Program-made: the position numbers and the translations under genes
In this document: positions 19,970 to 47,126 of the stretch, one piece after another
How the letters are laid out: every line of letters starts with the position of its first letter
How positions within the stretch are numbered: the first letter of the stretch is position 1
The notes under the pieces: generated by a model
Database searches by the model: none
What the model saw: the letters and a program-made list of their open reading frames with translations, nothing else
Told to the model about the DNA's origin: nothing
DNA from: an uncultured Bdellovibrionales bacterium
GTDB taxonomy: Bacteria; Bdellovibrionota_C; UBA2361; SZUA-149; CAZDIO01
Assembly (NCBI GenBank): GCA_964505555.1
Contig: CAZDIO010000125.1
Span: 3,088-67,087, forward strand
Length of the DNA stretch: 64,000 bases
Direction: 5' to 3'

Positions 19970-20890
19970 TTATGTTCTACAGGTCCAGGCGGGAGGATGA
20001 AAGGTCCAAACCGGAAAGTCAACGTTAAGAACACCACTAAGAAATTGCTTGGATATTTTTTTGTATTCAACACAGATTGCTTGATACCATTTCTTAAATT
20101 GATATCGACGTTTTGGACATGCCGTATGACAAAGAGGTCGAGGTGCTTTCTTTGTCATAAAAGGACGAAAGCCTGGTTTTATCCGGGAAAGCGCCAAGAT
20201 ACCAAAAACATTTTTCCGTTCTAATTGTCTTTTTTTCGCATACTCGCGCTCAAAATTCTCCAGTGCCTTCTTTTGTATTGAAAGCCTTTTTTCTTTCGAT
20301 AAGTGCTTCCAGATTGGAAGAGGTGCTAGTTGAAGAGCATAATTTCTCTGATAGTTTTTAATATCAACGTGCTTATATCTTCCTTTATTAGCTTTGTCTT
20401 TTCTAAAATTTGCCCAATCTGTCCAAGTATAAGTGGGAACGGTTCCCGTAATAGCTTGATGATACCCTGAAAGACCTTTATATTCGTCGCCCTTAGACAC
20501 AAGATATGAAGAAACTGCATTCGCATTTACATAACAATACATGTGCACCAATTTATCTTCAAACACCACTTCACAGTCGTATCTTCGATGCCAGAGCTTG
20601 CCATCTTCCCAACCATAGATTCTCTTTGTCGCCGCAGCTAATGCGGACTTTAAGTCTTTCATGAACTTAGGTATCCGTTTTTTTCTTCCTTGAAGGAGGA
20701 GATGAAAATGATTCCCAAGCACACTCACTCCATAAAGCTTAATTTCATATCGAGCAGCAGCTCTTGCAATGATACTGCCAAAGATATTTTCAAACTCCTT
20801 TGAAGGAAGAAACCAGATGCGACTTTCCTTTGTTCTGGAACAAATATGATAGATCTTTTTTGAACTTAATACGCGTAATGGCCAGCCCAT
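19970..20890 (-). mobile_element. Y1 HUH tyrosine transposase-like protein (IS200/IS605 TnpA or RAYT family) with a ~170-aa C-terminal extension
   Basis: The N-terminal ~135 aa align with IS200 TnpA: YHI…, the HUH motif GNHFHLLL, and a catalytic-Tyr helix (KLWHRRYDCEVV…YCYVNANAV, equivalent to the YIE.NPV motif). Visibly AT-rich relative to flanks. Adjacent to two tRNA genes. No tnpB partner. Confidence 0.7.
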
Positions 20891-27533: not shown

Positions 27534-28664
27534 TTACTTGATTTTGAGCTCTTTCTCAATTTCCTCTTTTTGGACTCTCCCTACCGGAGTTTTCCCTTGC
27601 TTGAGCAGTGCTTCTACTTGCCGGAGCACATCTTCCACAGAGATCTTTCGCATACAGAGATTATTAAGACCTGGACATTCTCGAAGATAACAAGGCGCAC
27701 AAGGAACATCCGATTGGAGAACATACTGCTCACTGCCATAGGGGGCAGATCGCAACGGACTTGTTGCCCCCCAGAGAGAGATTACTGGCGTTCCCACTGC
27801 TGCCGCAATATGCATCGGTCCCGAATCTGATCCGATAGCAAATAAAACATCTAAAAACACCGCTTTGAGTTCTCGAAGTTTTGTCTTCTCAACGAGATTC
27901 AAAACACGACCTGGCAACACACCTCTCATTATTTGATCCGCAACAACCCTCTCACTCTTCCCCCCAATCAGTATAGAAATCACCCCAAACCGACGAAACA
28001 TCTCTTCAATGAGCGCTTGATAATATTCGGAGGGCCAAAACCGACTTTTCCAGGAAGAACCCAAAATGAGGGCTACTCGTTTAGAACTTTCCGGAAGAGA
28101 GGAGAAACCTTGAACTTGACTCTGTTCTCTCCACAGCAAATCCAATTGCGTCTGAGTCTCATGATCAACCGTAAGACCAAACTCCAAAGGTGTGCTCTCT
28201 GTAAGACCAAGAAAATCTCCAAATTTTTGATAATGGAGGATTTTAGGAAGGGGGGCGTCAATTTCCTCGATATGGTAGTTATTAAAAAACCAGTTACCCT
28301 CTTTGGCGTTTTTTCTTGCAAATCCGAGTCGAAATGATGATCCCGTAGAATAACTTGTAAATCCACTCTTTAAGTGCCGTTGCAGATCAAAAACGAGGTC
28401 GAATTTCTCATCCCGGAGCTCTTGCAAGAATGCTCGATACGCAGAAAACCCCCCAGGGCGATTAAAGACAATGATCCGATCAATCGCAGTATGCCCTTCA
28501 AGAACCCCAAAGGACTTTGGCTCAACTGCCCAGGCAAGATAGACCGCGGGCCATTCTTTTTTTATTCGAAGGGCAAGCGGAAGCGCTCGGGTAACATCAC
28601 CAATCGCTCCGAGGAGCACAATGAGCACCTTTTTTGGTGCTGGGATATTGAGCGCTTCATTCAT
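27534..28664 (-). CDS. ADP-heptose:LPS heptosyltransferase (GT9)
   Basis: GT9 N-terminus KKVLIVLLGAIGDVTRALP. I place the start at MNEALNIP (28664) because the upstream ORF-track extension overlaps the kinase gene in another frame. Confidence 0.7.
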   Translation of the reverse strand: MNEALNIPAPKKVLIVLLGAIGDVTRALPLALRIKKEWPAVYLAWAVEPKSFGVLEGHTAIDRIIVFNRPGGFSAYRAFLQELRDEKFDLVFDLQRHLKSGFTSYSTGSSFRLGFARKNAKEGNWFFNNYHIEEIDAPLPKILHYQKFGDFLGLTESTPLEFGLTVDHETQTQLDLLWREQSQVQGFSSLPESSKRVALILGSSWKSRFWPSEYYQALIEEMFRRFGVISILIGGKSERVVADQIMRGVLPGRVLNLVEKTKLRELKAVFLDVLFAIGSDSGPMHIAAAVGTPVISLWGATSPLRSAPYGSEQYVLQSDVPCAPCYLRECPGLNNLCMRKISVEDVLRQVEALLKQGKTPVGRVQKEEIEKELKIK

Positions 28665-29478
28665 GTTTCCCAAAAAGTCCTCTCTCAAACGGCTCAGTAG
28701 CAACATTCTCAAGATGATGCTTTTTTGCCGATCTTCGCCATCGTTTTGCAAGCTGCCTCGTTTGCATGAGCTTTTTTTCTGGATATTGAAACTCTCGGGC
28801 CTTATCAAAGTCAATGAGGGAGAGCTCTCCATCGCTCCCATACAATACATTTCCAATATGAAGATCGGGGTGAGAAACTCCCTGCTCAAGCATCCGCCTA
28901 GCAAGCTGTCCGGTTCGATAACAGAGATGTGAAAATGCTTTTTGTTGAAGCACATCCCCTCGGGCCATCGAGATGAGATCGAGCAAATTTCTCGAAGATT
29001 CAATATGCAGCATGATTAACATCGCTTGGTAGAAATGACCAAAAGCACATGTCTTAATATATGCCCCTACGGGAAAAGGAACAGGAAGTTTCGCCTGATG
29101 AAGTTTTGAAAGAATCGCAAGCTCAGCTATTGGTCGAAAGCGTGGCTGAGAAAGTCGAAAAAACGGGTTTGAAAAGAATGTTTTTTTTAAGAAAAACCTT
29201 ATATATCCTCCTCGATACAGAGGGCGAAAGACCAAACTCCCTACACCAGAAAGAGAAAAGAATTTCACTCCCCTTCTGCCCATCTGGCCAAACTCCTGCT
29301 TCTCCTTGGATCTCCCCAAAAGTTCGATAAATGCCTGCCGTGCTTCATCAACGATTGGGAGATAATGAGGTTGATAGTTTGTGTGAAGACAAAATATTTC
29401 GCCACGATCAAGCCGCTTACAAATAAAGCTCATTTCTGAAAATACCAACCTTTCTTCGGAAACCAGCTCTGCTGCCAT
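28657..29478 (-). CDS. Kdo/LPS-core kinase family protein (KdkA/WaaP-like)
   Basis: Eukaryotic-like kinase catalytic motifs HPDLHIGNVLY and LIDFDKA, in the context of LPS core genes. Confidence 0.65.
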   Translation of the reverse strand: MAAELVSEERLVFSEMSFICKRLDRGEIFCLHTNYQPHYLPIVDEARQAFIELLGRSKEKQEFGQMGRRGVKFFSLSGVGSLVFRPLYRGGYIRFFLKKTFFSNPFFRLSQPRFRPIAELAILSKLHQAKLPVPFPVGAYIKTCAFGHFYQAMLIMLHIESSRNLLDLISMARGDVLQQKAFSHLCYRTGQLARRMLEQGVSHPDLHIGNVLYGSDGELSLIDFDKAREFQYPEKKLMQTRQLAKRWRRSAKKHHLENVATEPFERGLFGKHE

Positions 29479-29484
29479 GGGGGT

Positions 29485-30546
29485 TTACTCGCTTGTCGTT
29501 CCAGCAGTCAAACCGCTCTGAGATCTGCGCGTGAACTCCAGAAGGTTTGAAATTCCTGAAATGACCTCTAGAGGTAAAAGATTTTTCTGACAAGCGTGCG
29601 TCCCTGTTGGACAGATCTCTCCACCATGCCGTCCGCAGGGTCTGCAAGAAAGCCCCTCCACACCAAGAATCCGTGAGGGCACCTTCCATGGTGTATATCC
29701 AAACTCTGGCACGGTTGCACAAAATAACGCAACAACCGGAGTTTGCACCGCCGATGCCATATGCAGAGGCGCCGTATCATTAGCAAGAAGGAGCTCTAAA
29801 CACTTAATAACCGCAACCGAGACCAGCAGTGAGGTGCTCCCGCAAAGATTGAGGCACTGAACTCCTGCCTCCCTTTCGATCTCCTCAGAAAGGATTCGAT
29901 CTCTCTCTCCACCAAGGAGCACTACCCCAAATCCTCGTTGAGAAAAGTTTCGTACCACCTCAGAAAATCCTTCTTTGGTCCACCGCTTTGTCGCCCAGAC
30001 GCTTCCCGGAGCAACTCCAAGGATCGGCATTCCTTCAAACACTTTCAGGAGCTCCGTGGCCTGATTCTTCGCAACTTCGCTGAGTTCTATGTGCAAGTTC
30101 GATTCAAGGTGCTCAGGATCTTCGCCCACATTTCTAAAAATCGCTAAATTCCTTAACACCTCATGAGCGAGATCCCGTCTCGGCGCCGTCTGTGTATAAA
30201 ACATCTGTCCCGACGCCTCAGAAAACCCATATCGCTTTGGAATTCGAGCAAGCCATAAAAGCAATGCGGTCCTCCATGATTTATGGAGGCTAAAAACTAT
30301 TTGAAATTGTTTTTCTCGAAGGAGCGCGCTCATCTTCAAAAGCCCGCTCATTCCACGCATAGATCTCCGCTTGTCAAATATGAGGATCTCCTTCAATTCT
30401 GGATGATGCTGCACCAGCTCTGCCGCATCGGGAGTAGTCATAAAGAAAAGTTCTGCTTGCGGATAGAGTTTGCGAAGACTTGCTATTGTCGGAGTAGATA
30501 AAACTACATCACCAAGAAACCCAGTTTGCACAAGGAGAATCTTCAT
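29485..30546 (-). CDS. ADP-heptose:LPS heptosyltransferase II-like (GT9)
   Basis: MKILLVQTGFLGDVVLSTP and GT9 family similarity throughout. Confidence 0.75.
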   Translation of the reverse strand: MKILLVQTGFLGDVVLSTPTIASLRKLYPQAELFFMTTPDAAELVQHHPELKEILIFDKRRSMRGMSGLLKMSALLREKQFQIVFSLHKSWRTALLLWLARIPKRYGFSEASGQMFYTQTAPRRDLAHEVLRNLAIFRNVGEDPEHLESNLHIELSEVAKNQATELLKVFEGMPILGVAPGSVWATKRWTKEGFSEVVRNFSQRGFGVVLLGGERDRILSEEIEREAGVQCLNLCGSTSLLVSVAVIKCLELLLANDTAPLHMASAVQTPVVALFCATVPEFGYTPWKVPSRILGVEGLSCRPCGRHGGEICPTGTHACQKNLLPLEVISGISNLLEFTRRSQSGLTAGTTSE

Positions 30547-30566
30547 TCAACACTTCAACTCCACAT

Positions 30567-31199
30567 CTATTGAATCGTAACACGTTTTGTTACAGAAGCG
30601 TTTTTAGAAGAGACGAGATCTCGGAAAGTAAATATAATATCGTATGTTCCCTGAGGAGCTCCGGTAAGCGCAATCTCCAAGTTAAAATATAACGCGTACA
30701 TCGGTTCTGAGTAGACCTGAGTTTTTCGAATCAGATCTTTTCGAGCATCAAGCACGCGCCCCTCAGCTGAGCGAATCTCCACATCGACAGCAAGAAGATA
30801 TGAGTAGCGCTCAGCCTCCATTCGGAAATCATAATACTTCGGCTCAGCATAAAAAATGAGCGGTTCATCACTGCGGTAGGTTGAGCTTTTTCGAAGCTCT
30901 CTATCTCCGTAGGATCCAGCATATCGCGTTACAGCTGCAAAATTTGAAACCTGAAACTCATTTTTTGCCCACAAGGCCGCCGTCAAGCGCCCACATGCGC
31001 GCACAGCTTCTCCATATTGCTTATTTTTTACCGCTGATTGACATGGCGAGAGCAGTCCCCCAAGCTCATCTTGACTACTAAAATCTGCCGCGTAAAGTCG
31101 CTGAGGTATCGCAAAGCTAAAAAATAAAAGGACCCACATTCCCACGAAATTTACAAACCACATCTCTCGTTTTTGCATCATGTTCATCCTTTCTTTCAC
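30567..31199 (-). CDS. Hypothetical secreted/periplasmic protein
   Basis: N-terminal hydrophobic signal/anchor. No recognisable domain. Confidence 0.4.
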   Translation of the reverse strand: MKERMNMMQKREMWFVNFVGMWVLLFFSFAIPQRLYAADFSSQDELGGLLSPCQSAVKNKQYGEAVRACGRLTAALWAKNEFQVSNFAAVTRYAGSYGDRELRKSSTYRSDEPLIFYAEPKYYDFRMEAERYSYLLAVDVEIRSAEGRVLDARKDLIRKTQVYSEPMYALYFNLEIALTGAPQGTYDIIFTFRDLVSSKNASVTKRVTIQ

Positions 31200-32167
31200 T
31201 TAATAAGATCTGAAGCGAGCATCTGCTCTACCCAAGAGATCTCTTTTTTTAGTCCTTCTGCTAAAGAGGTCTGCGGCGAAAATCCCAGTATTTTTTTAGC
31301 GAAAGTAATATCCGCACCCGTATTTCTGGCATCTCCTGCTTGTCGTCCCTGATGCTCAACGGTAATGGTTTTTCCTCCAAGCAGTTTTCCAAGCAAAGTG
31401 ATTACTTCTTGCAAACCGACGCGAGAACCACCACCGATGTTATAAACGAGCTCTCCTCCAGAGCTTTTTGCCGCAAGGATATTAGCCTCGACAATATCAT
31501 CAATGAACGTAAAATCTCTTGTCTGTGTGCCATCGCCATAGACATGAATCTTCTCTCCTTTCAAGCTTGCTCGGATAAATTTATGAAATGCCATATCAGG
31601 CCGTTGCCGTGGTCCATAGACGGTAAAATATCGAAGGCTGACAGTCGGCAGGTTAAACTCTTTGTTATAGAGCACCATCAGATGCTCTGCAGCGAGCTTT
31701 GTCACTCCATACGGACTTACTGGTTGAGGACGGATACTTTCCGCCGTTGGTAAGGTTTCAGCATTGCCGTAGACACTGGAGCTAGAAGCAAAGATGATTT
31801 TTTTTAAATGCTTACTAATGTGTGGAAGCTTTGCGCTTTCTAAAATGCGCTGCGTTGCTCGAATATTGTTCTCTGTATAGATTTGAAAATCCTCTCCCCA
31901 ACTTGCGCGCACTCCTGCCTGGGCAGCTTGATGAAATACCCAATCCACTCCTTCAAGAAGCTCCTGCATCGGTATCTCAAGCAAGTTCTCCTCCCTAAAG
32001 GAATATCTGTTATATTCCTGCGCACGTTCAATATTTTTAAGCTTTAGAGGCTTTGGATAATAGTCAAGGAAACAATCCACTCCGATAACCTCGTGACCAT
32101 CGCGCAACAATCGTTCCGAGAGAGTTGAGCCAATAAATCCCGCCGCTCCTGTTACCACACAACGCAT
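31196..32167 (-). CDS. NAD-dependent nucleotide-sugar epimerase/dehydratase (SDR extended family)
   Basis: VTGAAGFIGS Rossmann motif, a YxxxK region, and a 323-aa length. Located in the heptose cluster, so possibly an ADP-heptose or UDP-sugar epimerase. Confidence 0.7.
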   Translation of the reverse strand: MRCVVTGAAGFIGSTLSERLLRDGHEVIGVDCFLDYYPKPLKLKNIERAQEYNRYSFREENLLEIPMQELLEGVDWVFHQAAQAGVRASWGEDFQIYTENNIRATQRILESAKLPHISKHLKKIIFASSSSVYGNAETLPTAESIRPQPVSPYGVTKLAAEHLMVLYNKEFNLPTVSLRYFTVYGPRQRPDMAFHKFIRASLKGEKIHVYGDGTQTRDFTFIDDIVEANILAAKSSGGELVYNIGGGSRVGLQEVITLLGKLLGGKTITVEHQGRQAGDARNTGADITFAKKILGFSPQTSLAEGLKKEISWVEQMLASDLIK

Positions 32168-32185
32168 TCCTTTCCCCTTTTCGTC

Positions 32186-32779
32186 TTAGCGATTCCCTGT
32201 TTGCTTTTTCTCTTTACGAAGCATCTCATTTATATACTCTACTGCTTCTTTTAGATCTTCTTTTACAACCATTGTATCTTTATTCTCAACAAGCTGTAAT
32301 TGTTCATCTCCAGAGCCGGTACGCACCAACACTCTCTGCGAAGAAGGAATTCCAATATTTGCTCCAAACTCTAGATCCCGTAACTTATCTCCAATGACCC
32401 AACTTCGTTGTGGATTAAACTTCCACATCTTTTTAATTTGAACAGCAAGCCCTGGGAGGGGTTTGCGACAATCGCAATTCTCCTCGGGGGCGTGCGGACA
32501 ATAAAAAACCCCATCTATTGTCGCATTCGGATCTTCTTCTAAGAGTTGTCTCAGAATTTCATCATTTGTCGCATCTACATCCGCCCGTGTGCCATATCCC
32601 CTCCCCACTGCAGACTGATTGGACACAATCACGGTAAGAAACCCTAACTGCTTCATCTGAGAGACCGCTTTCGAAACCCCTTCAATGAGCTCCACATGTT
32701 GTGGTGAACATACATACCCCCGATCGACATTGAGCGTGCCATCGCGATCGAGAAATATCACCGACACCTCTCCTCTCAT
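32186..32779 (-). CDS. gmhB: D,D-heptose 1,7-bisphosphate phosphatase (HAD family)
   Basis: HAD motif I FLDRDGTLN, and the Cys cluster CPHAPEENCDCRKP typical of GmhB. Confidence 0.8.
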   Translation of the reverse strand: MRGEVSVIFLDRDGTLNVDRGYVCSPQHVELIEGVSKAVSQMKQLGFLTVIVSNQSAVGRGYGTRADVDATNDEILRQLLEEDPNATIDGVFYCPHAPEENCDCRKPLPGLAVQIKKMWKFNPQRSWVIGDKLRDLEFGANIGIPSSQRVLVRTGSGDEQLQLVENKDTMVVKEDLKEAVEYINEMLRKEKKQTGNR

Positions 32780-32913: not shown

Positions 32914-34014
32914 TTACGCGGCAAACAAATTAAGCTGGAGTGGAGTTCCTGTCGTTACCTGCTTTGGGAGAAGTAACTTCTGTGGAGCAAGAATTTTTAG
33001 CGCGTAATAGAGATTTCGATAACTATGTGGTCGTAGCATTCGCAGTTGCTTATCAACAACAAGCTTCTGAGCCACCGGAAGATGCTTCAACTTCAGCTCA
33101 TCTTCCACTCTTCCCGCCGAAAGAGCGCCAAATGTAATATAATCACTATGTGCATCAAGAAGCTCAGCAAACTCCCAAGCATCGCGGGTAATCTCTCCAT
33201 AGGGGAGAATTGGTGATACGACGAAATTTACTTTAATCCCCTGTTGGCGGAGTCCATCCGCTGCAATCATCCGCTCAGTAATGCTTGGTTGCCCTGGGGT
33301 ATAACGATTCACAACACTATCGAGTCGAGTTTCTACATGCAACGCTACTACTGCTTTTGTTCCCAAAGCACGTAAAGTTGGAAGCCCCGCTATCACGAGT
33401 GGTGAACGGGTTTGAATCACCAACAAACCAGGTCGGTACCGCTCAAGGAGAGCAAGGCAATTCATTGTTACATTAAACTTTTTTGGAAATGAAAAGAACG
33501 GATCCGTAGTTATTCCAAAATAGATCACACTCGATTCCAGTTTTCCTTGTTCATGGAGTTGAGAAAGTCTTTTCTCAAGCGCCTCTTCATAATGCTCCTT
33601 ATAAAGGAAGTACCTTCCGGTCGGGAGGAGATAATCTCTCGTATCTCGAAACCGTAAGTGAAACTGGCTTGGTTGAAATCCGTGAAGCGCGTTTTCCTCA
33701 CCTTCAGATTGAGTTGTTACTTGGGAAGATCCACTTCCCAAATGAGAGGAAAACGTCACACCATTTGGATACGCGTTTAAGGTGTAAATGTGTGTCGCGT
33801 TATCATGCCACGTCCGCACGAGTTCTTCCGCCCCAGGGTTAAAATAAAAATCATCTCCCAAGCTATGGGTATCTCTCACTTGAGGAATTTTCGTTCCTGA
33901 ACTACCCCCCCCGTCAATGGGGGTATGTAATTCTATCAGGGCAGATTTTGCGTTATCTTCTCGAATCTTTAGTTGTTTCATATAGCCTCGTAAAACGCTA
34001 ACGTTTACAACCAC
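32914..34014 (-). CDS. Unknown-function protein, paralog of 34930..35796. Possibly an SPL/COG1533-like fold without radical-SAM cysteines.
   Basis: 366 aa. Shares conserved blocks with the 288-aa paralog (FG…DPF, IQ(T/S)RSPL, NRYTP…ER…A). It has a single Cys and no CxxxCxxC. Confidence 0.45.
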   Translation of the reverse strand: MVVNVSVLRGYMKQLKIREDNAKSALIELHTPIDGGGSSGTKIPQVRDTHSLGDDFYFNPGAEELVRTWHDNATHIYTLNAYPNGVTFSSHLGSGSSQVTTQSEGEENALHGFQPSQFHLRFRDTRDYLLPTGRYFLYKEHYEEALEKRLSQLHEQGKLESSVIYFGITTDPFFSFPKKFNVTMNCLALLERYRPGLLVIQTRSPLVIAGLPTLRALGTKAVVALHVETRLDSVVNRYTPGQPSITERMIAADGLRQQGIKVNFVVSPILPYGEITRDAWEFAELLDAHSDYITFGALSAGRVEDELKLKHLPVAQKLVVDKQLRMLRPHSYRNLYYALKILAPQKLLLPKQVTTGTPLQLNLFAA

Positions 34015-34269
34015 ATCCCCTATTTGTCCCCATTATACAGCTTCACCAATACTAGTTCAACCCACTTAAAGCAATTTGTGTATGATCTAGATTAGTTTCA
34101 ACTTTGGATTTCATTAAAGATTATTAATAACCTGCCGATATACATGTGATTGACAAGCTATTGCCTCATCAAAACGCTGAAAGATTTTATTTTAGCGACA
34201 GGCACATAGGTTTTTTGGAGGTTTGATGCTCCGATTGGCCAATATATAAAAGATGAAAAGGTAGGCACC

Positions 34270-34452
34270 ATGAAAGAAGCACTTCGTAAACTAAAAGAAA
34301 AAAAGACAGAGCAAAATGAACAGGGGTCCATTGAGCTTATTGTTATCGGCCTTCTTGCAGCGTTGATTATTGTTCTTGCAATTCCACTCTTAAAAGATAC
34401 TGGTTCAAAAACAGCATCTGCACTCTCGTCTCTAAACGGACAGATGACATAA
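34270..34452 (+). CDS. Small pilin-like membrane peptide (Flp/type IV pilin-like), paralog 1
   Basis: 60 aa. A charged leader MKEALRKLKEKKTEQNEQG is followed by SIELIVIGLLAALIIVLAIPLL, a single TM, and a short polar tail. It resembles a prepilin leader plus hydrophobic N-terminal helix. Confidence 0.45.
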   Translation: MKEALRKLKEKKTEQNEQGSIELIVIGLLAALIIVLAIPLLKDTGSKTASALSSLNGQMT

Positions 34453-34591
34453 GATTGTGTTGCTTAGGAACTAGGTTGAGAGAACCTCCTCTTCAGAGCG
34501 CTGTATTATATACTTAATATTGACTCTTATAGTGTAGACACTCAACCTTTTTCCAAACTTGCATAGTGCTCTTTGGCTGGAACAACTTACA

Positions 34592-34768
34592 ATGCGCGTT
34601 AAAGCGCTGGGGCAGAAAATGAAAAAAGAAACAAATGAACGTGGTTCGATAGAAATTATCGTTATCGGACTGCTTGCAGCGTTGGTGATCGTCCTTGCTA
34701 TTCCGTTATTAAAAGATACCGGATCAAAAACGGCGAGCTCACTTTCCTCGATGAACGCCATATACTAA
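34592..34768 (+). CDS. Small pilin-like membrane peptide, paralog 2
   Basis: MRVKALGQKMKKETNERGSIEIIVIGLLAALVIVLAIPLLKDTGSKTASSLSSMNAIY is near-identical to paralog 1 in the core. The ORF track extends it to a TTG at 34559, but the ATG at 34592 aligns with paralog 1. Confidence 0.45.
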   Translation: MRVKALGQKMKKETNERGSIEIIVIGLLAALVIVLAIPLLKDTGSKTASSLSSMNAIY

Positions 34769-34929
34769 TTCTAGCATGTAAAACATGCTTCTTCTTGAGG
34801 GCTTGGTCACAAAATATCGCTCTTATGCGATAGAAAAACCGTAGTTTAAGTTTCCTGAACCAACTTCTTTCCTCTTGAATCTAATCGAGAGGATGAATGA
34901 AATAGGGTTAACAACAACTACGGTTTTTT

Positions 34930-35796
34930 ATGGCCACACTCCACACTGCTCGTACTGGAAAATTTTCCCTTTTAATTGCCGACATCATCGGTGGAGATCT
35001 GCATTTACAAAAAAAACTGCTCGCTCTTGATACTCAGCAACTACCCCTTCTCCTCCCCCAACTTCCCCTATTTTTACCTGATACTCGTTGTTCCGGTTCA
35101 ATTCAAAAATCGAGAGGTACAACGTTTCGCCGTTCGCTAGGAAAACTGACCGATGAACTTTCAAGACACCATTCAGCAAATACGATCATTCTCTTTGGAG
35201 CAATGAGCGATCCTTTCTCACCTTTTGAGAATGCTTTCGATCTCGCTCTGAAAGTCACCGAGTCATTTGCACGCTTTCTTCCAAAAAAACTTTTTATCCA
35301 ATCACGATCTCCTTTGCTCTCACTTCTTTTTCCAATCTTGAAATCTCTTGGAAAAAGGGTCTGCATAACTATGGCCCTTGAGACAAACAATCAAGATATC
35401 GCGGACCGCTACACACCGCACTTACCACTGGTTGCTGAAAGAATTGAAACAGCAAAATTGCTCCGTTCTTTAGAGGTTGATATGCTTCTTCAAGTTGCAC
35501 CACTCTTGCCCTTAAGCGACGCAGCAAACGCTGCATCACAATTTGCAACTATCTTACGAGAAACAAGCACCTCAATGTATGTAAAGCCTCTTGCCTGGTT
35601 TTTAAGCCGAGTACTAAGCACAAATTGCTACAAAACTCTCTCGCTTCAAACTGCCCGCATGAATGCAAACGATCCTTACACCAAACACGCCTCCACTCTT
35701 CTTATCGAAGAACTCAAAGCCACTGCTTCAAACCAGTTACTGTATCGCTCCCTTCCTCCTCAACTGCCTCTACGAACAGAGCCGGTAAGAATCTAA
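34930..35796 (+). CDS. Unknown-function protein, paralog of 32914..34014
   Basis: 288 aa. Blocks ILFGAMSDPF, LFIQSRSPLL and DRYTPHLPLVAERIETA align with the 366-aa paralog. Confidence 0.45.
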   Translation: MATLHTARTGKFSLLIADIIGGDLHLQKKLLALDTQQLPLLLPQLPLFLPDTRCSGSIQKSRGTTFRRSLGKLTDELSRHHSANTIILFGAMSDPFSPFENAFDLALKVTESFARFLPKKLFIQSRSPLLSLLFPILKSLGKRVCITMALETNNQDIADRYTPHLPLVAERIETAKLLRSLEVDMLLQVAPLLPLSDAANAASQFATILRETSTSMYVKPLAWFLSRVLSTNCYKTLSLQTARMNANDPYTKHASTLLIEELKATASNQLLYRSLPPQLPLRTEPVRI

Positions 35797-35871
35797 AGAT
35801 TACCCGCTCCTTGTAAGCATGTTATTGATAGTTGCCCACCGAAGTTCTTTTGGTTACTATTTCCTGTAATA

Positions 35872-36951
35872 ATGAAAACCTTAATTTTGTTTGTAGTTTT
35901 TTTATTGCTGCTTGGATGCGCTCCCCAGCGTCCCCCTCTTCCACCTGGCGTTGTCCCTGAAGCACGACCCGTTACGGCCTCGGAAGAACAATATGGCCAC
36001 CAAGTCTTAAGTGCGTTAAGCGAGCAATATCCTCTCGATTATAATCATCCTCGTTTTGATGCGGTGATTGAAGTTGTTGATAAACTCACCAGCGCTGCCC
36101 AAGCGGATAAAGATCCCTGGCACGTGTACCTTTTTGACGCTCCTCGTATAAAAAATGCTGCGGCAACCAGAGGAAACCACGTTTTTGTTTGGTCAGGCCT
36201 TCTTAACTTTACCAAAGATGACACCGAACTCGCCACGATCCTCGCTCATGAAATTGCCCACGTACTTGCTGGTCATACCGATCCTGATCCCAACGAAGAG
36301 ATTAAAAAACTTCTTATCAACATCGGTGCTGTTGCCGTGGGAGTCGCCGCTTCACGAACAACGGGGAATCCCTATACGGCTCAAAATCTAGGAAATATCG
36401 CTTCCTCTCTCACTTCGGAGGTAGGAAAAGGAATTCTCATCAACCCCTATTCCCGTGAACGTGAACTTGAAGCAGATCAGATCGGTTTATTTATGATGGC
36501 TGATGCAAAATTTGATCCTGAAGTGGCGATTAAGTTTTGGCACCGTGTTCAAAATGATCCTGATTTTGGAGGAACGCTCTCTTTTTTCTCATCTCATCCT
36601 CCTCCTGCAGATAGGCTTTCTAAACTACAATCGCTTCTCCCTCAGGCAAGAGCGCGCTTTCAAGGGCTTACTCCAAAACTCTCCTCTCTCGATCCTCGCA
36701 CTCCTCTTCGAAGTAACACCCGCGATACTTTTAACTGGTCTGGCACCTCAAATAATCTCCGTGAGAATAAATCCTTTCGGGTGGCATCAAATCGGGCCAT
36801 CCTTTATGAAAAACCATCTACGGGAAGTAAAAAGATCGGAGAATTTGCCCCTGGGGCAGAGATCATAGGAAGAGAGGTCAATTCAGATTTTGTGGAGATC
36901 TCCTCACCCGATCACGGCTATCTCCAACGACAACTTCTTGTGCCAAAATAA
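35872..36951 (+). CDS. M48-family zinc metalloprotease (lipoprotein-like) with a C-terminal SH3b-like domain
   Basis: HEIAHVLAGH (HExxH) plus a downstream E. The signal peptide has Cys (LLLGCAP). The C-terminal ~60 aa (EFAPGAEIIGRE…FVEI) look like SH3b. Confidence 0.7.
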   Translation: MKTLILFVVFLLLLGCAPQRPPLPPGVVPEARPVTASEEQYGHQVLSALSEQYPLDYNHPRFDAVIEVVDKLTSAAQADKDPWHVYLFDAPRIKNAAATRGNHVFVWSGLLNFTKDDTELATILAHEIAHVLAGHTDPDPNEEIKKLLINIGAVAVGVAASRTTGNPYTAQNLGNIASSLTSEVGKGILINPYSRERELEADQIGLFMMADAKFDPEVAIKFWHRVQNDPDFGGTLSFFSSHPPPADRLSKLQSLLPQARARFQGLTPKLSSLDPRTPLRSNTRDTFNWSGTSNNLRENKSFRVASNRAILYEKPSTGSKKIGEFAPGAEIIGREVNSDFVEISSPDHGYLQRQLLVPK

Positions 36952-42503: not shown

Positions 42504-43166
42504 TTAATACCTTCCCTTGCCATGGCGAACGATCTCTCCCTCATTCATATAGATAACATCTTCCGCGATGTTCGAGGCATGATCTGCAATACGTTCTAGG
42601 TTTTTAGAGATCGCAAGAACAAGAAGCATCTGGTCAATTTTTGAAGTATCCCGCTTCATCTCTTCCTTTACTAAGGTATACACCTTGCGATTAATCTCAT
42701 CTATCTCCGTATCTGAAGCAAGAACGGCAGTTGCCTGGGTACTATCCATCTCCACAAGGCATTGCAGGCTATTTTCCAGGGTTCTCTTCGTTTTCTCCAC
42801 CATCTCATTAATTAAAGGGATATTAAGCGGGGTACCAAGAAAGGTGAGATTCTTAGCCCGCTGTGCAATGTTTACTGCCAAATCACCAATTCGCTCAAGA
42901 TCACTATTCATTTTTAACACCGCAACAATAAATCGAAGATCAATTGCTACTGGCTGATGAAGCGCCAAAAGCTTTAGACATTCCTCTTCTAAATCTACTT
43001 CATACGTATCAATCTCGCGATCTCCCTCGATCACCTCCCCCGCAAGTTTATCGTTAAGAACAATAATTGCAGCGGTTGCTTTTTCAACTCGTTGTTGAAC
43101 AAGGATTCCCAATTCGATAATTCTTTTCTTCAGATTGAGGACTTCATGTTGTAAATGTCTTGTCAT
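42504..43166 (-). CDS. phoU: Phosphate signalling complex protein PhoU
   Basis: 220 aa with the two PhoU repeats (E.DLERIGDLAVNIA / E.NLERIADHASNIAE). Confidence 0.9.
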   Translation of the reverse strand: MTRHLQHEVLNLKKRIIELGILVQQRVEKATAAIIVLNDKLAGEVIEGDREIDTYEVDLEEECLKLLALHQPVAIDLRFIVAVLKMNSDLERIGDLAVNIAQRAKNLTFLGTPLNIPLINEMVEKTKRTLENSLQCLVEMDSTQATAVLASDTEIDEINRKVYTLVKEEMKRDTSKIDQMLLVLAISKNLERIADHASNIAEDVIYMNEGEIVRHGKGRY

Positions 43167-43176
43167 ACACCTCTTT

Positions 43177-43986
43177 TTAACCGAATCGGCCCGTCACATA
43201 ATCTTCTGTTTCTTGTTTCTGTGGATTTGTAAAGATTGTCTTTGTTTTATCAAACTCTACGAGCCTCCCTTCGTAAAAAAAGGCGGTAAAGTCAGAAACT
43301 CGTGCGGCTTGTTGCATATTGTGGGTAACGATCACAATGGAGTACTCTGTGCGAAGCTCATTGATCAGATCTTCAATCTTTGCTGTTGAGCGGGGATCGA
43401 GCGCAGAGGCGGGCTCATCCATGAGTAAGATCTCCGGATTTACCGCAAGGGCACGAGCGATGCACAAGCGTTGTTGTTGTCCACCAGAGAGACTAAAGGC
43501 ACTTGACCTAAGTCTGTCTTTTACCTCATTCCAAAGATCTGCTCGCTTGAGACTCCCTTCGACAATCTCCTCAAGCTGCTTGCGATCATTTACCTGGTGT
43601 AACCTCGGTCCATAAGCAACGTTATCAAAAATTGATTTTGGAAAAGGGTTACTCCTTTGAAACACCATCCCCACTTTTTTTCGCAAAAATACAAGGTCAA
43701 CTTTCTCCCGATAGATATCAATCTCTCCAATCTGCACACTCCCCTCAAGGCGCGTATTGGGAATGAGATCGTTCATCCGATTCAGTGTTCGAAGAAATGT
43801 AGACTTCCCGCATCCGGAAGGCCCAATGAGCGCCGTTACCGCATTTGAGGCGATCTCTACATTCACATCGAAGAGGGCTTGCTTTTGTCCATAGAAAAAA
43901 TTCAACTCCTTGACTCTGACGCTCACTCGTCTCTGCTCTGTAATTGGTTTCTCCATCGGAACCTCTAGAACGTTTAGTAATCTCAT
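43177..43986 (-). CDS. pstB: Phosphate ABC transporter ATP-binding protein PstB
   Basis: Walker [10 protein letters not shown], the signature [15 protein letters not shown], and Walker [12 protein letters not shown]. Confidence 0.9.
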
Positions 43987-43992
43987 AGATCG

Positions 43993-44847
43993 TTAAAAAT
44001 CATATCTTTTTTCAAACTTTGCACGAAGGAGTACCGCAATACAATTCATTGTCAACAAAAGTGAAAGAAGTACAACAATAGCCGCAGCAGCATTTGCATG
44101 AAACGCTTCCTGTGGACGAGAGGTCCAGTTAAACGCTTGAATCGGAAGAGCCGTAAAGGAAGAAAAAAGCCCATCTGGAATAAAGGCCACATAGGTCAGG
44201 GCTCCAATAGTAATGAGTGGCGCCGTTTCACCGATCGCACGAGAAAACGCTAGAATGCACCCGGTAAAAATCCCTGGAAGTGCCGCAGGAACCACCTGAT
44301 CACGCACAACCTCCCACTTACTTGCACCAAGAGCGTAGGCAGCCTCTCGAAAGGTATAGGGGACTCGACGAATGGCTTCACGCGCAGCGATAATGATCAC
44401 CGGCATTATTAATAAAGAGAGCGTAAATGCTCCCGTAAGCAGACTCCGTTCCAAGCGAAACGTCCTTACAAATAGCTGTAAACCAAGGATTCCATAAATG
44501 ATTGAGGGAACAGCAGCAAGATTTGCAATATTAAGTTCAATAAAACGGGTCAATCGGTTCTGAGGTGCATATTCCTCTAAATACACGGCCGCTCCTATTC
44601 CAAGAGGAGCACTAATCACCGCGGTAAGGAGCATCAAATAGACTGAACCAGTAAGTGCCGAAGCAATACCAGCTTTCTCCGGGTGCCGAGAGGGAAAAGC
44701 AGTGAAAAACGATCCTTGCAGACGCGGAAGTGCGTCATAGAGAATATCCACTACCAAAGTAGCAAGCATTAACACTGAAAGTGAAAGTGCAAACACTCCT
44801 GCGAATCGAAATAAGTGTTCAGCCTGTTTTCTTGCTAAGAATCTCAT
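43993..44847 (-). CDS. pstA: Phosphate ABC transporter permease PstA
   Basis: 284 aa, 6 TMs, with the [12 protein letters not shown] permease motif. Confidence 0.9.
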   Translation of the reverse strand: MRFLARKQAEHLFRFAGVFALSLSVLMLATLVVDILYDALPRLQGSFFTAFPSRHPEKAGIASALTGSVYLMLLTAVISAPLGIGAAVYLEEYAPQNRLTRFIELNIANLAAVPSIIYGILGLQLFVRTFRLERSLLTGAFTLSLLIMPVIIIAAREAIRRVPYTFREAAYALGASKWEVVRDQVVPAALPGIFTGCILAFSRAIGETAPLITIGALTYVAFIPDGLFSSFTALPIQAFNWTSRPQEAFHANAAAAIVVLLSLLLTMNCIAVLLRAKFEKRYDF

Positions 44848-44855
44848 CCGTTTCT

Positions 44856-45812
44856 TTATGAAAATCTGCGCTTAAAGCGACTTCTCATGTACAAACTAAA
44901 AAGATTTAATAGTAAGGTAATAACAAACAATGCTCCTCCTACGGCAAATATTGTTTTGTATTCAAGCGTACCGTGCGGTGTGTCACCAAGAGAAATTTGG
45001 ACAATATATGCTGTCATCGTCTCGACCCCTTGAAGGGGATTGAAAGAAAGTCGTGGTTGTTGGCCTGCAGCGATGGCGACGATCATGGTTTCTCCAACCG
45101 CTCGTGACATCGCAAGAACAAAAGCTGCCATAATCCCCCCAAACGAGGACGGCACAAGAACACCAAAGATCATCTGCAACTTAGAAGCTCCGAGTGCATA
45201 TGCCCCTTCTTTTAGATTTCTTGGCACTGAATAAAAAGCATCTTCACTGAGAGAGGCCACCATCGGAAGAATCATAATCCCCATTACAATTCCTGGACTT
45301 AATGCATTAAACCCTGAAAGATTTGGAATGAATCTCTGCAAGAGAGGGGTAACAAAAAGTAGAGCAAAATATCCAAAAACTACGGTAGGGATGCCCGCGA
45401 GCACCTCTAGAATCGGCTTTAATATTCCACGCACCCGCGCACTTGCAAACTCACTCAGGTAGATGGCACTCATCAGACCCATTGGCAACGCCACAGTAAG
45501 TGCAATAATTGATGTCAAAAATGTCCCCGATACTAATGGCAGGATTCCAAAATGTTTATCTGCAAAAAGAGGGGTCCACTGGGTATCAAACAGGAAATCG
45601 GTAATCGGCACATCAACAAAAAACGAGCCCGCCTCAATCACAAGAACAAGAACAATACCGAGCGTGGTAAACACGGAAATACACGCACAGAAAAAAAGCA
45701 TTAGCCGAATCGATTCTTCCTTAATCCTTTTTAACGAAGCAACACGCAGTCGGCGCACTTCGGTAAAGACAGGAGTGTCAATGCTTGTTTCTGTCATGGA
45801 AGGATCCATCAC
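44856..45812 (-). CDS. pstC: Phosphate ABC transporter permease PstC
   Basis: 318 aa with the [12 protein letters not shown] motif, upstream of pstA. Confidence 0.9.
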
Positions 45813-45845
45813 TTACTGAGGGAGATAGATAGGAGCGAGTTTTTT

Positions 45846-45934
45846 AATGAACACAGGGTTTCACAGAGATCCACAGAGTCAGAATATTCGATTTTATTCT
45901 TTACTCTGTGAAACTCCGTGAACTCTGTGTTCAA
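45846..45934. repeat. Palindromic dispersed repeat, copy C (REP/MITE-like, CACAGAG family)
   Basis: gaacacagggtttcacagag…ctctgtgaaactccgtgaactctgtgttc: imperfect long inverted arms around a loop gaatattcgattttattc. Intergenic between pstC and pstS. Confidence 0.7.
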
Positions 45935-45959
45935 AAAATCTTATCTTACTGCCGTTTGA

Positions 45960-46979
45960 CTACTGCTCTTTTTTTAACAACTCAGCAAGGGTCATTCCCA
46001 CATGGTTTCCACCCTGAGTAAAAACGGTGCCAATAATGGACTTATTAAACCTTCCCTCAGCGAGATTATAAACTTCGGAGGGAAGCTGCACGTAGCCTAC
46101 TTCATTTGATAATGTTGATACATTCTTCAAATAGAAGGAAACAAACTCCTTCACAGCAGGACGATCAAGTGCTTTCTTACTCACATAGATAAACAGTGGG
46201 CGAGATAATGGCTGATACAATCCCTTAACCACGTTTTCTTTTGTGGGTGATTGTGGACCTTTGCCATTAGCTTCTTTTTCATCATCAATTGCCAATGCCT
46301 TTAATTTGCCTTTATTCTCTTCATAGTATGCCATTCCAAAAAATCCGAGAGCATTTGGATCACTCGCAATTCCCTGAACAAGCACATTGTCATCCTCACT
46401 ACTGGTGAAGTCACCTCTACTAGAATGCTCTTTTCCCACCACAGCTTCTGTAAAGTAGTCGTACGTCCCGGAATCAACCCCTGCTCCAAAAAGAACAAGT
46501 GGTTTATTTGGCCAATCCGCTCGAATTTGATTCCACGTAGTAATCTTTCCCTGAGCTTCAGGTTCCCAGATCTTTTTTAGCTCGGCTACCGTGATTGAAT
46601 TCGCCCAGGTGTTGTCCTTACTGACGATTACCGAGAGCGCATCATAGGCAACAGGAAGCTCCACAAACTCTACCCCGTTATCCTTACAGAGTTGAAGTTC
46701 CGTTTCTTTTATTGGTCGTGAGGCATCAGAAATATCGGTCTCTCCTGCACAGAACTTTTTAAATCCACCCCCAGTTCCTGAGATACCCACGGTAATTTTG
46801 ATCTCTTTGTTTTTTGAACCAAACTCCTCTGCAACTGCTTCAGTAATTGGATACACAGTACTCGAGCCATCAACTCGGATCATATCTGTCCCCATGGTGG
46901 TGGGCGCAGCAGATACCGATTGTGAAAGGAGAATGCCCGTAAGGAATGCTACATACTTCAGATTGCCATCTTTTTTCAT
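45960..46979 (-). CDS. pstS: Phosphate-binding periplasmic protein PstS
   Basis: PBP fold ([16 protein letters not shown]…[11 protein letters not shown]). The likely start is [10 protein letters not shown]…, giving a signal peptide. The ORF-track start at 47045 is an upstream extension. Confidence 0.85.
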
Positions 46980-47126
46980 ATTCCCATGCCTTTTTCTTTC
47001 AACTGTCCTAAATAAATAATAACAATACGCTATTACTGCGCGCACAGTGCAGTAGTTTTGTTAGGGTATTATTAGGAGAATGCTAGAAGTTTTTCAAGTT
47101 CCGGAGAGAATGGCAAAAAACTGAGC

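What the first reader, a model, noticed from the sequence alone, without database searches (positions are those of the whole stretch)
32914..36951. Candidate undescribed module: two tandem Flp/pilin-like micro-proteins bracketed by divergent paralogous 'cysteine-less SPL-like' proteins and an M48 protease
Two ~60-aa paralogs (34270-34452, 34592-34768) have the same design: a charged ~18-aa leader ending in (Q/R)G, then SIE(L/I)IVIGLLAAL(I/V)IVLAIPLL, then a polar tail KDTGSKTAS(A/S)LSS. This is the layout of Flp/type-IVb prepilins (leader-G|xxxxE-hydrophobic helix), but with E at +3 rather than the canonical +5 and no Tyr. The window contains no tad/cpa genes, prepilin peptidase or secretion ATPase. 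The pair is bracketed by two paralogous large proteins on opposite strands (366 aa and 288 aa). These share blocks (FG..DPF, IQxRSPL, RYTP..ER..A) that, from memory, line up with the C-terminal half of spore-photoproduct-lyase/COG1533 radical-SAM enzymes (compare B. subtilis SplB …F.PGTSPLDKRIEAA…VAPI…). Both completely lack a CxxxCxxC Fe-S motif. A radical-SAM-derived scaffold that has lost its cluster, duplicated around duplicated pilin-like peptides, with an M48 (HExxH) SH3b protease immediately downstream, is not a described system. It could be a peptide-maturation or novel surface-filament module, or the small proteins could be membrane anchors or regulators of the large ones.
Basis: partly seen in the sequence, partly recalled or inferred. 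Interest (0 to 1): 0.8.

Follow-up and report, generated by a model that had tools for sequence, protein, structure and literature searches.

The report
Orphan Flp pilins beside cluster-less radical-SAM paralogs
Two tandem mini-genes encode a divergent type of Flp (Tad-pilus) pilin, and they lie between two copies of a radical-SAM-fold protein that has lost its iron-sulfur site and a membrane-envelope protease; this gene neighbourhood is conserved in uncultured Bdellovibrio-like bacteria, but its parts come and go independently, so it is probably not one machine.

The parts
34270..34452 (+). flp-like prepilin gene A (60 aa): basic leader MKEALRKLKEKKTEQNEQG | SIELIVIGLLAALIIVLAIPLL + polar tail
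   Evidence: ORF, with an AAGGTAGG ribosome-binding site upstream. It is a member of the >=149-protein family (P0113). Family members head tad-like operons. hhalign to canonical Flp gives 81% probability. Purifying selection relative to copy B.
34592..34768 (+). flp-like prepilin gene B (58 aa as read; probable true start is the ATG at 34619, giving 49 aa, MKKETNERG|SIEIIVIG...)
   Evidence: ORF; sequence; database entry P0111.
34773..34789 (+). weak terminator-like hairpin just after peptide B (AGCATGT-AAA-ACATGCT then a T-rich run)
   Evidence: Consensus scan only. The number of such sites in the region is not above the shuffled expectation, so this is tentative.
32914..34014 (-). A-type cluster-less radical-SAM-fold protein (366 aa from GTG; 355 aa from the ATG at 33981). 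It is transcribed divergently from the flp genes and is the first gene of the co-directional GmhB-like/epimerase/heptosyltransferase string.
34032..34060 (-). sigma-70-like promoter match (TTGAAC-17-TATAAT, 10/12) just upstream of the A-type gene
   Evidence: Consensus match only; fewer such sites were found in the region than in shuffles, so this is tentative.
34930..35796 (+). B-type cluster-less radical-SAM-fold paralog (288 aa), on the same strand as the flp genes and M48
   Evidence: BLASTP to the A-type protein E=6e-23. NCBIfam PA0069 E=5e-6. It is its own 50%-identity cluster representative (P0390), matching the family profile at E=5e-58. Syntenic B-type copies occur in L003, L004, L005, L007, L008, L011, L013, L015, L016, L018 and L031.
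35872..36951 (+). M48 zinc metalloprotease, predicted lipoprotein (LLLLGC), HEIAH motif, BepA/LoiP-like catalytic domain without TPR, possible C-terminal SH3
   Evidence: Pfam Peptidase_M48 9.6e-33. NCBIfam BepA 82.8 bits (cut-off 570) and LoiP 43.7 bits (cut-off 365). SH3_3 E=0.038. Syntenic in most related loci.
29485..32779 (-). Context: LPS inner-core genes co-directional with and downstream of the A-type gene. These are a GmhB-like HAD phosphatase (32186-32779), an NAD-dependent epimerase (31196-32167), a 210-aa unknown protein (30567-31199) and a GT9 heptosyltransferase (29485-30546).
   Evidence: Pfam. The same order follows the A-type gene in most loci. In L039 it is followed by GT9 and a Kdo kinase.

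Best explanation
The 4-kb stretch is a conserved cell-envelope gene neighbourhood of an uncultured Bdellovibrionota lineage. It is built from separable parts and is not one dedicated machine.

(1) The two micro-genes encode Flp-type (Tad / type IVc) prepilins of a lineage-specific subfamily.
- Inferred mechanism: the basic leader keeps the N-terminus in the cytoplasm while the hydrophobic helix inserts into the inner membrane.
- A prepilin peptidase (TadV-type, or PilD as shown for B. bacteriovorus Flp1) cuts after the invariant Gly.
- The about 40-aa mature pilin, starting S-[IV]-E-L, is polymerised by a TadA/TadB/TadC machine encoded elsewhere in the genome.
- The window copies are orphan, anciently duplicated flp genes.

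(2) The 366-aa and 288-aa proteins are paralogs of a large branch of the COG1533/PA0069-like radical-SAM family.
- They keep the SPL-like partial TIM barrel and most barrel motifs (TDP(F/Y), QTRSPL, (R)YTP..P....R, SP.LP).
- All three cluster cysteines are replaced, so they cannot carry out reductive SAM cleavage through the canonical site.
- They most likely act as non-radical binding proteins or enzymes. The A-type copy is probably co-transcribed with LPS inner-core (heptose) genes.

(3) The M48 lipoprotein is a BepA/LoiP-like periplasmic envelope-quality-control protease.

Shown: the identities of the parts, the synteny, and the independent presence or absence of the parts. Inferred: pilin processing and assembly, and any role of the cluster-less proteins.
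For: Peptides:
- The family has at least 149 members with a near-invariant core.
- In L019, L021, L025, L030, L032, L033, L035 and L045 the gene lies immediately upstream of SAF/CpaB-like, T2SSE, T2SSF x2 and ParA-like genes. L021 also has TadE/TadG nearby.
- The ATPase's best NCBIfam hit is the TadA family, and NCBI names its homologs TadA/CpaF.
- hhalign to canonical Flp gives 81% probability, E=1.2e-5.
- Synonymous substitutions dominate between the two window copies.
- A third, degenerate paralog is found in the same sequencing sample in yet another context.
- Non-TAD-associated flp genes and trimmed Flp motifs are published for BALOs (PMC5430801). PilD processes Flp1 in B. bacteriovorus (bioRxiv 10.64898/2026.07.08.737194).

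Large proteins:
- NCBIfam sub-threshold hits to PA0069, Rv2578c and SPL.
- Exhaustive profile search: down to about 1e-29 no hit carries a CxxxCxxC motif. Below that, canonical LNPYxGCxFxCxYC proteins appear that hit PA0069 at 1e-32 to 1e-43.

Separability:
- flp was found in 7 of 18 A-selected loci.
- All four combinations of flp and B-paralog presence occur.
- The A-type gene is followed by LPS-core genes after gaps of 57-135 bp in most loci.
Against: - The peptides fail Pfam Flp_Fap (no hit at E<=10, against 73-77 bits for controls). They also lack the defining G-x4-E-Y motif, having Glu at +3 and no Tyr.
- No Tad machinery or prepilin peptidase is visible in the window or in any A-type locus.
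It is therefore not shown that the window's organism owns a matching Tad system.
- The flp subtype found beside the A-type and M48 genes (IVIG...IIV) is sequence-distinct from the tad-linked subtype (IVLG...IVV).
- In every assessable case this flp subtype sits in this same neighbourhood, including on a deep branch (L034, 40% identity). That is what a functional link would also predict.
Confidence: 0.6

Rival explanations
1. This is a true functional module. The cluster-less radical-SAM-fold paralogs and/or the M48 protease act on the IVIG-subtype Flp-like peptides, for example by binding, chaperoning, trimming the periplasmic tail, or controlling their level. On this reading the flp - (288-type) - M48 genes form an operon that is regulated divergently with the 366-type gene.
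For: - Every assessable IVIG-subtype peptide gene lies between the A-type gene and M48 or the B-type gene: the window, L001, L002, L005, L007, L009, L015, L016, L024, L026 and L034.
- At least 14 contigs carry both an A-type gene and a peptide gene, judged by equal contig lengths.
- The arrangement persists down to 40% identity of the A-type protein.
- The peptide genes share a strand with the B-type gene and M48, with short spacers.
- The subtype is sequence-distinct from the tad-linked one.
Against: - flp is absent from 11 of 18 A-type loci.
- The B-type gene is absent from L001, L002, L024, L026 and L034, which have flp. It is present in L003, L004, L008, L013 and L018, which lack flp.
- M48 and the A-type gene remain adjacent without either (L017, L039).
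- The A-type protein has no signal peptide and M48 is periplasmic, so the two cannot act at the same face of the membrane (inference).
- A single ancestral relocation of flp followed by vertical descent and loss explains the pattern without invoking function.
Confidence: 0.17
2. In this lineage the peptides are no longer pilins. They would be small single-pass inner-membrane proteins derived from Flp and kept for another role, such as a regulator or anchor in envelope or LPS biogenesis. The Tad machinery may be absent.
For: - No tad genes are near any IVIG-type copy.
- No matching TadA homolog is on the large A-type contigs.
- Glu is at +3, and in the third paralog P0191 the Glu is lost altogether.
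- The neighbours are all envelope or LPS genes.
- L022 keeps the gene although the tad operon next to it is gone.
Against: - The leader-Gly-Ser-[IV]-Glu-Leu core and the helix are virtually identical to the tad-linked copies. That degree of conservation fits constraints from a peptidase, a platform and filament packing.
- Dispersed flp genes that still serve a distant Tad machine are documented in Bdellovibrio, where the non-TAD flp4 is required for predation (PMC5430801).
- Tad operons without an adjacent flp exist (L043), so some genomes must supply the pilin from elsewhere.
Confidence: 0.13
3. The association that matters is with LPS, not with the pilins. The A-type cluster-less protein would be a component, enzymatic or regulatory, of the LPS inner-core (heptose/Kdo) pathway, and the flp genes are bystanders in its divergent intergenic region.
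For: - The A-type gene is followed co-directionally, after 57-135 bp, by GmhB-like HAD, epimerase and GT9 heptosyltransferase genes in most loci.
- In the distant L039 it is followed by GT9 plus a Kdo kinase.
- This is the most constant neighbour relation seen.
Against: - The evidence is guilt by association only.
- The canonical COG1533 relatives are uncharacterised and are usually annotated as DNA-repair-like.
- L014 and L040 lack the LPS neighbours.
- No sugar-binding or catalytic feature could be tested here.
Confidence: 0.25

Closest known systems
Flp/Fap major pilins of Tad (type IVc) pili, Pfam PF04964, including the non-TAD-associated flp3/flp4 and the trimmed Flp2 of Bdellovibrio bacteriovorus (PMC5430801)
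   Same: - Length is 50-60 aa.
- A short basic leader ends in an invariant Gly and is followed directly by a hydrophobic helix containing a Glu.
- The tail is short and polar, with an (I/L)G(T/S)...L...(hydrophobic) pattern.
- In many genomes the gene sits at the head of a cpaB-tadA-tadB-tadC-tadZ-like operon.
- There are several copies per genome, some far from the tad genes.
- hhalign to canonical Flp gives 81% probability.
   Different: - The motif is G|S-[IV]-E-L, with Glu at +3 and Leu in place of Tyr, instead of G|xxxxEY.
- A Pro lies 17 residues after the Glu.
- There is no Pfam or NCBIfam hit.
- The associated Tad-like operons show no secretin or A24 peptidase in the stretches fetched.
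COG1533 radical-SAM proteins (NCBIfam PA0069 family NF033668, Rv2578c family NF038135, radical SAM mobile pair protein B TIGR04470) and spore photoproduct lyase (PDB 4FHC)
   Same: - Sequence motifs after the cluster loop are shared: TDP(F/Y), QTRSPL, ET, (Y/F)TP..P....R, (S/A)P.LP.
- The cluster loop itself is still recognisable: LN.Y..G..F.
   Different: - All three cysteines of CxxxCxxC are replaced (LNxYPNG(V/I)TFSxH).
- A-type proteins have a 40-90-residue insertion after the loop (QFHLRFRDTRDY.LP.GRYFL) and a disordered N-terminal tail.
- Scores are far below the curated cut-offs (40 against 360 bits).
- The family is confined, as far as records are named, to Bdellovibrionota-like MAGs.
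- It occurs as a divergent A/B paralog pair next to LPS-core genes and M48.
BepA / LoiP-type M48 envelope metalloproteases
   Same: - The M48 catalytic domain carries HExxH.
- It is a lipoprotein-type or periplasmic protease.
- It sits among outer-membrane and LPS biogenesis genes.
   Different: - There is no TPR domain.
- It scores well below the BepA and LoiP equivalog cut-offs.
- It has an extra C-terminal region with a weak SH3 signal.

Membership tests
Flp/Fap pilin (Tad / type IVc major pilin, PF04964) | Small prepilin with a short charged leader ending in Gly, followed immediately by a hydrophobic helix about 20 residues long (class III signal peptide layout) | tested here: met
   Gly, Ser and Glu are invariant across the 37 aligned family members, and the helix is near-invariant. 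Both window copies conform.
Flp/Fap pilin (Tad / type IVc major pilin, PF04964) | G-x4-E-Y motif (Glu at +5 and Tyr at +6 of the mature pilin) | tested here: not met
   The family motif is G-S-[IVT]-E-L, with Glu at +3 and no Tyr. The motif definition is taken from PMC5430801.
Flp/Fap pilin (Tad / type IVc major pilin, PF04964) | Score above the Pfam PF04964 gathering threshold (32.2 bits) | tested here: not met
   The window peptides give no hit even at E<=10. The best family member, P0131, scores 14 bits. Two NCBI-annotated Flp controls score 73-77 bits.
Flp/Fap pilin (Tad / type IVc major pilin, PF04964) | Profile-level homology to canonical Flp | tested here: inconclusive
   hhalign of A5 against three canonical Flp sequences gives 81% probability and pairwise E=1.2e-5 over 49 columns, with the cleavage Gly and GL(L/I)AAL in register. 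The template profile is thin, and one of its sequences was recalled from memory.
Flp/Fap pilin (Tad / type IVc major pilin, PF04964) | Genetic linkage to Tad assembly genes (cpaB/rcpC, tadA/cpaF, tadB, tadC, tadZ, tadE/F/G) | tested here: met
   Met for the family: L019, L021, L025, L030, L032, L033, L035 and L045. Not met for the window copies themselves.
Flp/Fap pilin (Tad / type IVc major pilin, PF04964) | Cleavage by a prepilin peptidase and assembly into a filament | not testable with these tools
   This needs proteomics or microscopy. No A24 peptidase was found in the window ORFs that were scanned.
Radical SAM superfamily, COG1533 / PA0069 / SPL branch | CxxxCxxC motif ligating the [4Fe-4S] cluster that cleaves SAM | tested here: not met
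   There is no conserved Cys in the 61-sequence alignment. No motif is found in any profile hit down to about 1e-29. The aligned position reads LNxYPNG(V/I)TFSxH.
Radical SAM superfamily, COG1533 / PA0069 / SPL branch | Partial (beta/alpha)6 TIM-barrel radical-SAM fold | tested here: met
   [not shown]
Radical SAM superfamily, COG1533 / PA0069 / SPL branch | Sequence score above the curated family cut-offs (NF033668 360 bits; PF20903 27 bits) | tested here: not met
   40.3 bits and 25.7 bits to NF033668, and 13 bits to Pfam SPL. Homology is nevertheless significant (E=1.9e-10) and is bridged by canonical relatives.
Radical SAM superfamily, COG1533 / PA0069 / SPL branch | SAM binding and 5'-deoxyadenosyl radical generation | not testable with these tools
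   This needs biochemistry. The canonical mechanism is expected to be impossible without the cluster ligands (inference).
Peptidase M48 (BepA/LoiP-like) | M48 domain above the Pfam threshold, with an HExxH zinc site | tested here: met
   114 bits against a cut-off of 20.3. HEIAH is read directly.
Peptidase M48 (BepA/LoiP-like) | BepA equivalog (M48 plus TPR, >=570 bits) or LoiP (>=365 bits) | tested here: not met
   82.8 and 43.7 bits, and no TPR domain.

The most novel reading that the evidence does not exclude
The cluster-less radical-SAM-fold paralogs, the M48 lipoprotein and the IVIG-subtype Flp-like peptides form a previously unknown functional unit. For example, a pseudo-radical-SAM scaffold might bind or license a non-canonical (Glu+3) pilin, or couple it to LPS-core/envelope assembly, in genomes where no adjacent Tad machinery exists.
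Probability: 0.15. Interest if true: 0.7.

Novelty: new variant of a known kind. Interest (0 to 1): 0.4.

Why it matters
Two things here are missing from the curated libraries.

(1) A sizeable, highly conserved Flp-like pilin subfamily with Glu at +3 and no Tyr.
- Pfam and NCBIfam miss it, so Tad pilins, and therefore Tad systems, are under-annotated in Bdellovibrionota and Oligoflexia.
- In these predators Tad pili have been shown to matter for prey invasion.

(2) A large branch of the COG1533 radical-SAM family that has lost all cluster ligands while keeping the barrel motifs.
- It gives a clean natural case for asking what a radical-SAM scaffold does without radical chemistry.
- It is also a possible handle on the unknown substrate of the canonical PA0069/Rv2578c-type enzymes.

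The conserved placement next to LPS-core genes and a BepA-like protease gives a testable starting point.

Tried and rejected
- The PDB sequence-profile search with the 61-sequence family alignment found nothing (best E=0.9, an unrelated exonuclease). Only fold comparison linked the family to SPL.
- The first attempt to scan genome contigs with the mixed A/B alignment failed because no stretch was conserved enough. It was repeated with A-type sequences only.
- The metagenome scan with the peptide alignment confirmed only 12 loci, several of them very short.
- I tried to tie the window's MAG to a tad operon through cluster-member accessions, but no accessions were returned. Sample look-ups of two TadA homologs pointed to other samples.
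- I looked for a prepilin peptidase among the unannotated proteins flanking flp in the tad-type loci (the 203-aa, 176-aa, 71-aa proteins and others). There was no Pfam or NCBIfam signal.
- The afdb50 fold library was unavailable.
- A type IVa-pilin reading was considered, because the Glu-to-Pro spacing of 17 equals E5..P22. I did not pursue it. It rests on memory only, there is no N_methyl Pfam hit, and the operon context is Tad-like.
- A RiPP-precursor reading (peptide plus radical-SAM maturase plus protease) was rejected. The 'maturase' has no cluster, the peptide core is a membrane helix conserved like a structural protein, and the same peptide heads Tad operons.

Full report
**1. The observation**

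All five ORFs are present as described.
- The A-type large protein is 366 aa from a GTG at 34014. The public databases hold it as 355 aa, starting at the ATG at 33981 (P0001).
- Peptide B has a better-supported start at 34619 (MKKETNERGS..., preceded by GGGG).
- The two peptides are an old tandem duplication. Over 47 aligned codons, 16 are identical, 21 differ only synonymously and 10 change the residue, mostly at the ends. Both copies are therefore under purifying selection.
- Neither has a CxxxCxxC motif.
- The downstream gene is an M48 metalloprotease with HEIAH, a lipobox-like LLLLGC and a weak C-terminal SH3 signal.
- G+C content is unremarkable across the window.

**2. What the small proteins are**

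- No Pfam or NCBIfam model hits them.
- A profile search found at least 149 proteins of 40-90 aa from Bdellovibrionota, Oligoflexia, 'Deltaproteobacteria' and 'Dadabacteria' MAGs.
- They share a strikingly invariant core, (E/Q)(K/R)G-S-[IVT]-E-L-[IV]-V-[ILM]-G-L-L-A-A-L-I-[IV]-V-L-A-I-P-L-L. An Flp-like tail follows..IG(T/S)xTxxxLxxhNxxh.

The decisive evidence is genomic context.
- In L019 (Oligoflexia GCA_019694515.1) the gene is followed by a SAF/CpaB-like gene, a T2SSE ATPase, two T2SSF genes, a response regulator and a ParA/MinD-like ATPase.
- In L021 it is followed by SAF and T2SSE, with TadG- and TadE-like genes nearby.
- L025, L030, L032, L033, L035 and L045 show the same arrangement.
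- The SAF protein's best NCBIfam hit is CpaB, and the ATPase's is the TadA family.
- NCBI names the ATPase homologs 'Flp pilus assembly complex ATPase component TadA' or 'CpaF family protein'.
- A profile-profile comparison with canonical Flp gives 81% probability (E=1.2e-5). The controls were two Phyllobacterium proteins annotated as Flp that score 73-77 bits on PF04964, plus a recalled Caulobacter PilA. The cleavage Gly and the GL(L/I)AAL segment align in register.

The family therefore works like, and is most probably homologous to, Flp pilins. It fails two formal criteria: the Pfam threshold, and the G-x4-E-Y motif (here Glu is at +3 and there is no Tyr).

**3. Two contexts for one family**

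- Tad-linked copies carry GSIELIVLGLLAALIVVLAIP.
- Copies next to the radical-SAM-like and M48 genes carry GSVELIVIGL(L/I)AALIIVLAIP.
- The window and all 18 genome loci fetched through the A-type protein contain no tad genes. Pfam scans of 43 of the window's 50 larger ORFs show only housekeeping, LPS, two-component and pst genes.
- A third, degenerate paralog (P0191, Glu lost) occurs in the same sequencing sample as the window, between an MMPL transporter gene and a Ddl gene.
- Some tad operons have no flp nearby (L043).
- Dispersed, non-TAD-associated flp genes, a trimmed Flp2 motif and the absence of TadV are published for Bdellovibrio-like organisms (PMC5430801).
- In B. bacteriovorus PilD processes Flp1, and the tad genes are spread over several loci (bioRxiv 10.64898/2026.07.08.737194).
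- The lack of tad genes in the window is therefore not anomalous for this group.

**4. What the large proteins are**

NCBIfam gives PA0069-family radical SAM at E=1.9e-10 (A-type) and 5e-6 (B-type). The match covers only the part of the model after the cluster loop and is far below the cut-off.
- The A-type protein has 109 homologs at 36-61% identity, all from Bdellovibrionota-like MAGs, with no conserved cysteine.
- An AF2 model built from 61 sequences is confident: pLDDT 86.9, pTM 0.82.
- An exhaustive profile search of 1.84 billion representatives gave 2038 hits (90 at E<=1e-30). No hit down to about 1e-29 carries a CxxxCxxC motif, and this group includes many 250-300-aa forms and the window's own B-type protein.
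- Below that threshold, canonical proteins with LNPYxGCxFxCxYCY appear. They hit PA0069, Rv2578c and mobile-pair-B models at 1e-32 to 1e-43.
- In a joint alignment the canonical cluster loop aligns with LNxYPNG(V/I)TFSxH. The later motifs TDP(F/Y), QTRSPL, ET, (Y/F)TP..P....R and (S/A)P.LP are shared.
- This is therefore a genuine, diverse, cluster-less branch of the COG1533 family. It has no curated model, and I found no paper describing it in the library searched.

**5. Is it a module?**

- Synteny is real. The order M48(-) – [B-type](-) – [flp](-) – A-type(+) – GmhB-like HAD – epimerase – GT9 heptosyltransferase recurs in Bdellovibrionales MAGs. It also recurs in metagenome contigs fetched through the peptide.
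- The variable parts are independent, however. The peptide HMM finds flp in 7 of 18 A-selected loci.
- L001, L002, L024, L026 and L034 have flp without the B-type gene. L003, L004, L008, L013 and L018 have the B-type gene without flp. L017 has neither.
- In L001 a class-I methyltransferase-like ORF sits where the B-type gene would be.
- On a rough NJ tree of A-type orthologs the flp-positive loci are scattered, including the deep L034 branch. This suggests an ancestral arrangement with repeated losses.
- The most constant neighbours of the A-type gene are the divergently oriented M48 gene and the co-directional LPS inner-core genes, with gaps of 57-135 bp. This holds even in the distant L039 (GT9 plus Kdo kinase).

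**6. Mechanism**

*Shown:*
- gene identities
- fold
- loss of the cluster motif
- contexts
- selection on the peptides

*Inferred:*
- The peptides are inserted in the inner membrane, cleaved after the invariant Gly by a TadV- or PilD-type peptidase, and polymerised by a Tad machine encoded elsewhere.
- The cluster-less proteins cannot generate a 5'-deoxyadenosyl radical by the canonical route. They act as non-radical binders or enzymes, with the A-type copy possibly tied to the LPS-core operon.
- M48 is a periplasmic envelope-quality-control protease.

The alternative of a real functional unit is not excluded. Every assessable IVIG-type peptide sits in this neighbourhood, and no Tad system could be shown for these genomes. 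I give that reading about 0.15-0.2.

**7. Novelty and verdict**

- The parts are new variants of known kinds: a Glu+3 Flp-like pilin subfamily, and a cluster-less COG1533 branch occurring as an A/B pair. Neither has a curated Pfam or NCBIfam model.
- The claim of a categorically new 'module' is not supported by the co-occurrence data.
- Interest is moderate (0.4).
- The most useful follow-ups are whole-genome checks for Tad machinery, phylogenetically corrected co-occurrence, multimer modelling, and basic biochemistry of the A-type protein.

Noticed in passing
L019 5150-7631; also L020, L022, L023, L025, L030, L033: A Ser/Thr protein kinase gene followed by two unannotated genes (about 200 aa and 180 aa) is conserved immediately upstream of the tad-linked flp gene. 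Two further unannotated genes on the opposite strand lie before the kinase. In L022 this block and flp are kept, but gyrA follows directly and the tad operon is absent.
   Followed up: partly
L019 8001-14885; L030; L033; L043; L045: The Tad-like operons linked to this pilin family show CpaB-like, TadA, TadB, TadC, a response regulator and TadZ-like genes. No secretin (RcpA/CpaC) or A24 prepilin peptidase is seen in the fetched stretches. In L043 and L045 TadZ is divergent from TadA, and CpaB is missing from the operon.
   Followed up: partly
L036 3329-3511 and L037 1302-1484 (P0191), same SRA sample as the window: A third Flp-like paralog has the conserved Glu replaced (…NRGAISLIVIGLLAALIVVIAIPFF…). 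Its tail is nearly identical to that of window peptide B. It lies between an MMPL transporter gene and a double D-Ala-D-Ala-ligase-like gene.
   Followed up: partly
window 19970-20890 (-): A 306-aa ORF carries an IS200-like Y1 transposase domain (Pfam Y1_Tnp, E=3e-10). It lies in a slightly lower-GC stretch (0.41-0.42 at 20-24 kb).
   Followed up: no
window 42504-47045 (-) and L021 740-5161: A pstSCAB-phoU operon lies within about 8-10 kb of the flp genes both in the window and in the distant tad-type locus L021. This hints at an older shared regional synteny from which the tad operon is missing in the window's lineage.
   Followed up: no
L001 6483-7325 (+): Where other loci have the B-type paralog, L001 has a 280-aa ORF on the opposite strand. 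By eye it looks like a class-I SAM methyltransferase (…CLDLGSDNGV…); no profile was run.
   Followed up: no
[not shown]
   Followed up: no
window 49085-50527 (-): A 480-aa protein combines a PD-(D/E)XK/Cas4-like nuclease domain with an RNase_H_2 domain (Pfam). It is unrelated to the finding.
   Followed up: no
window 27534-29003 (-) and 28657-29478 (-): Two long ORFs on the minus strand overlap by about 350 bp. The 489-aa GT9 ORF (TTG start) probably starts further downstream than listed.
   Followed up: no
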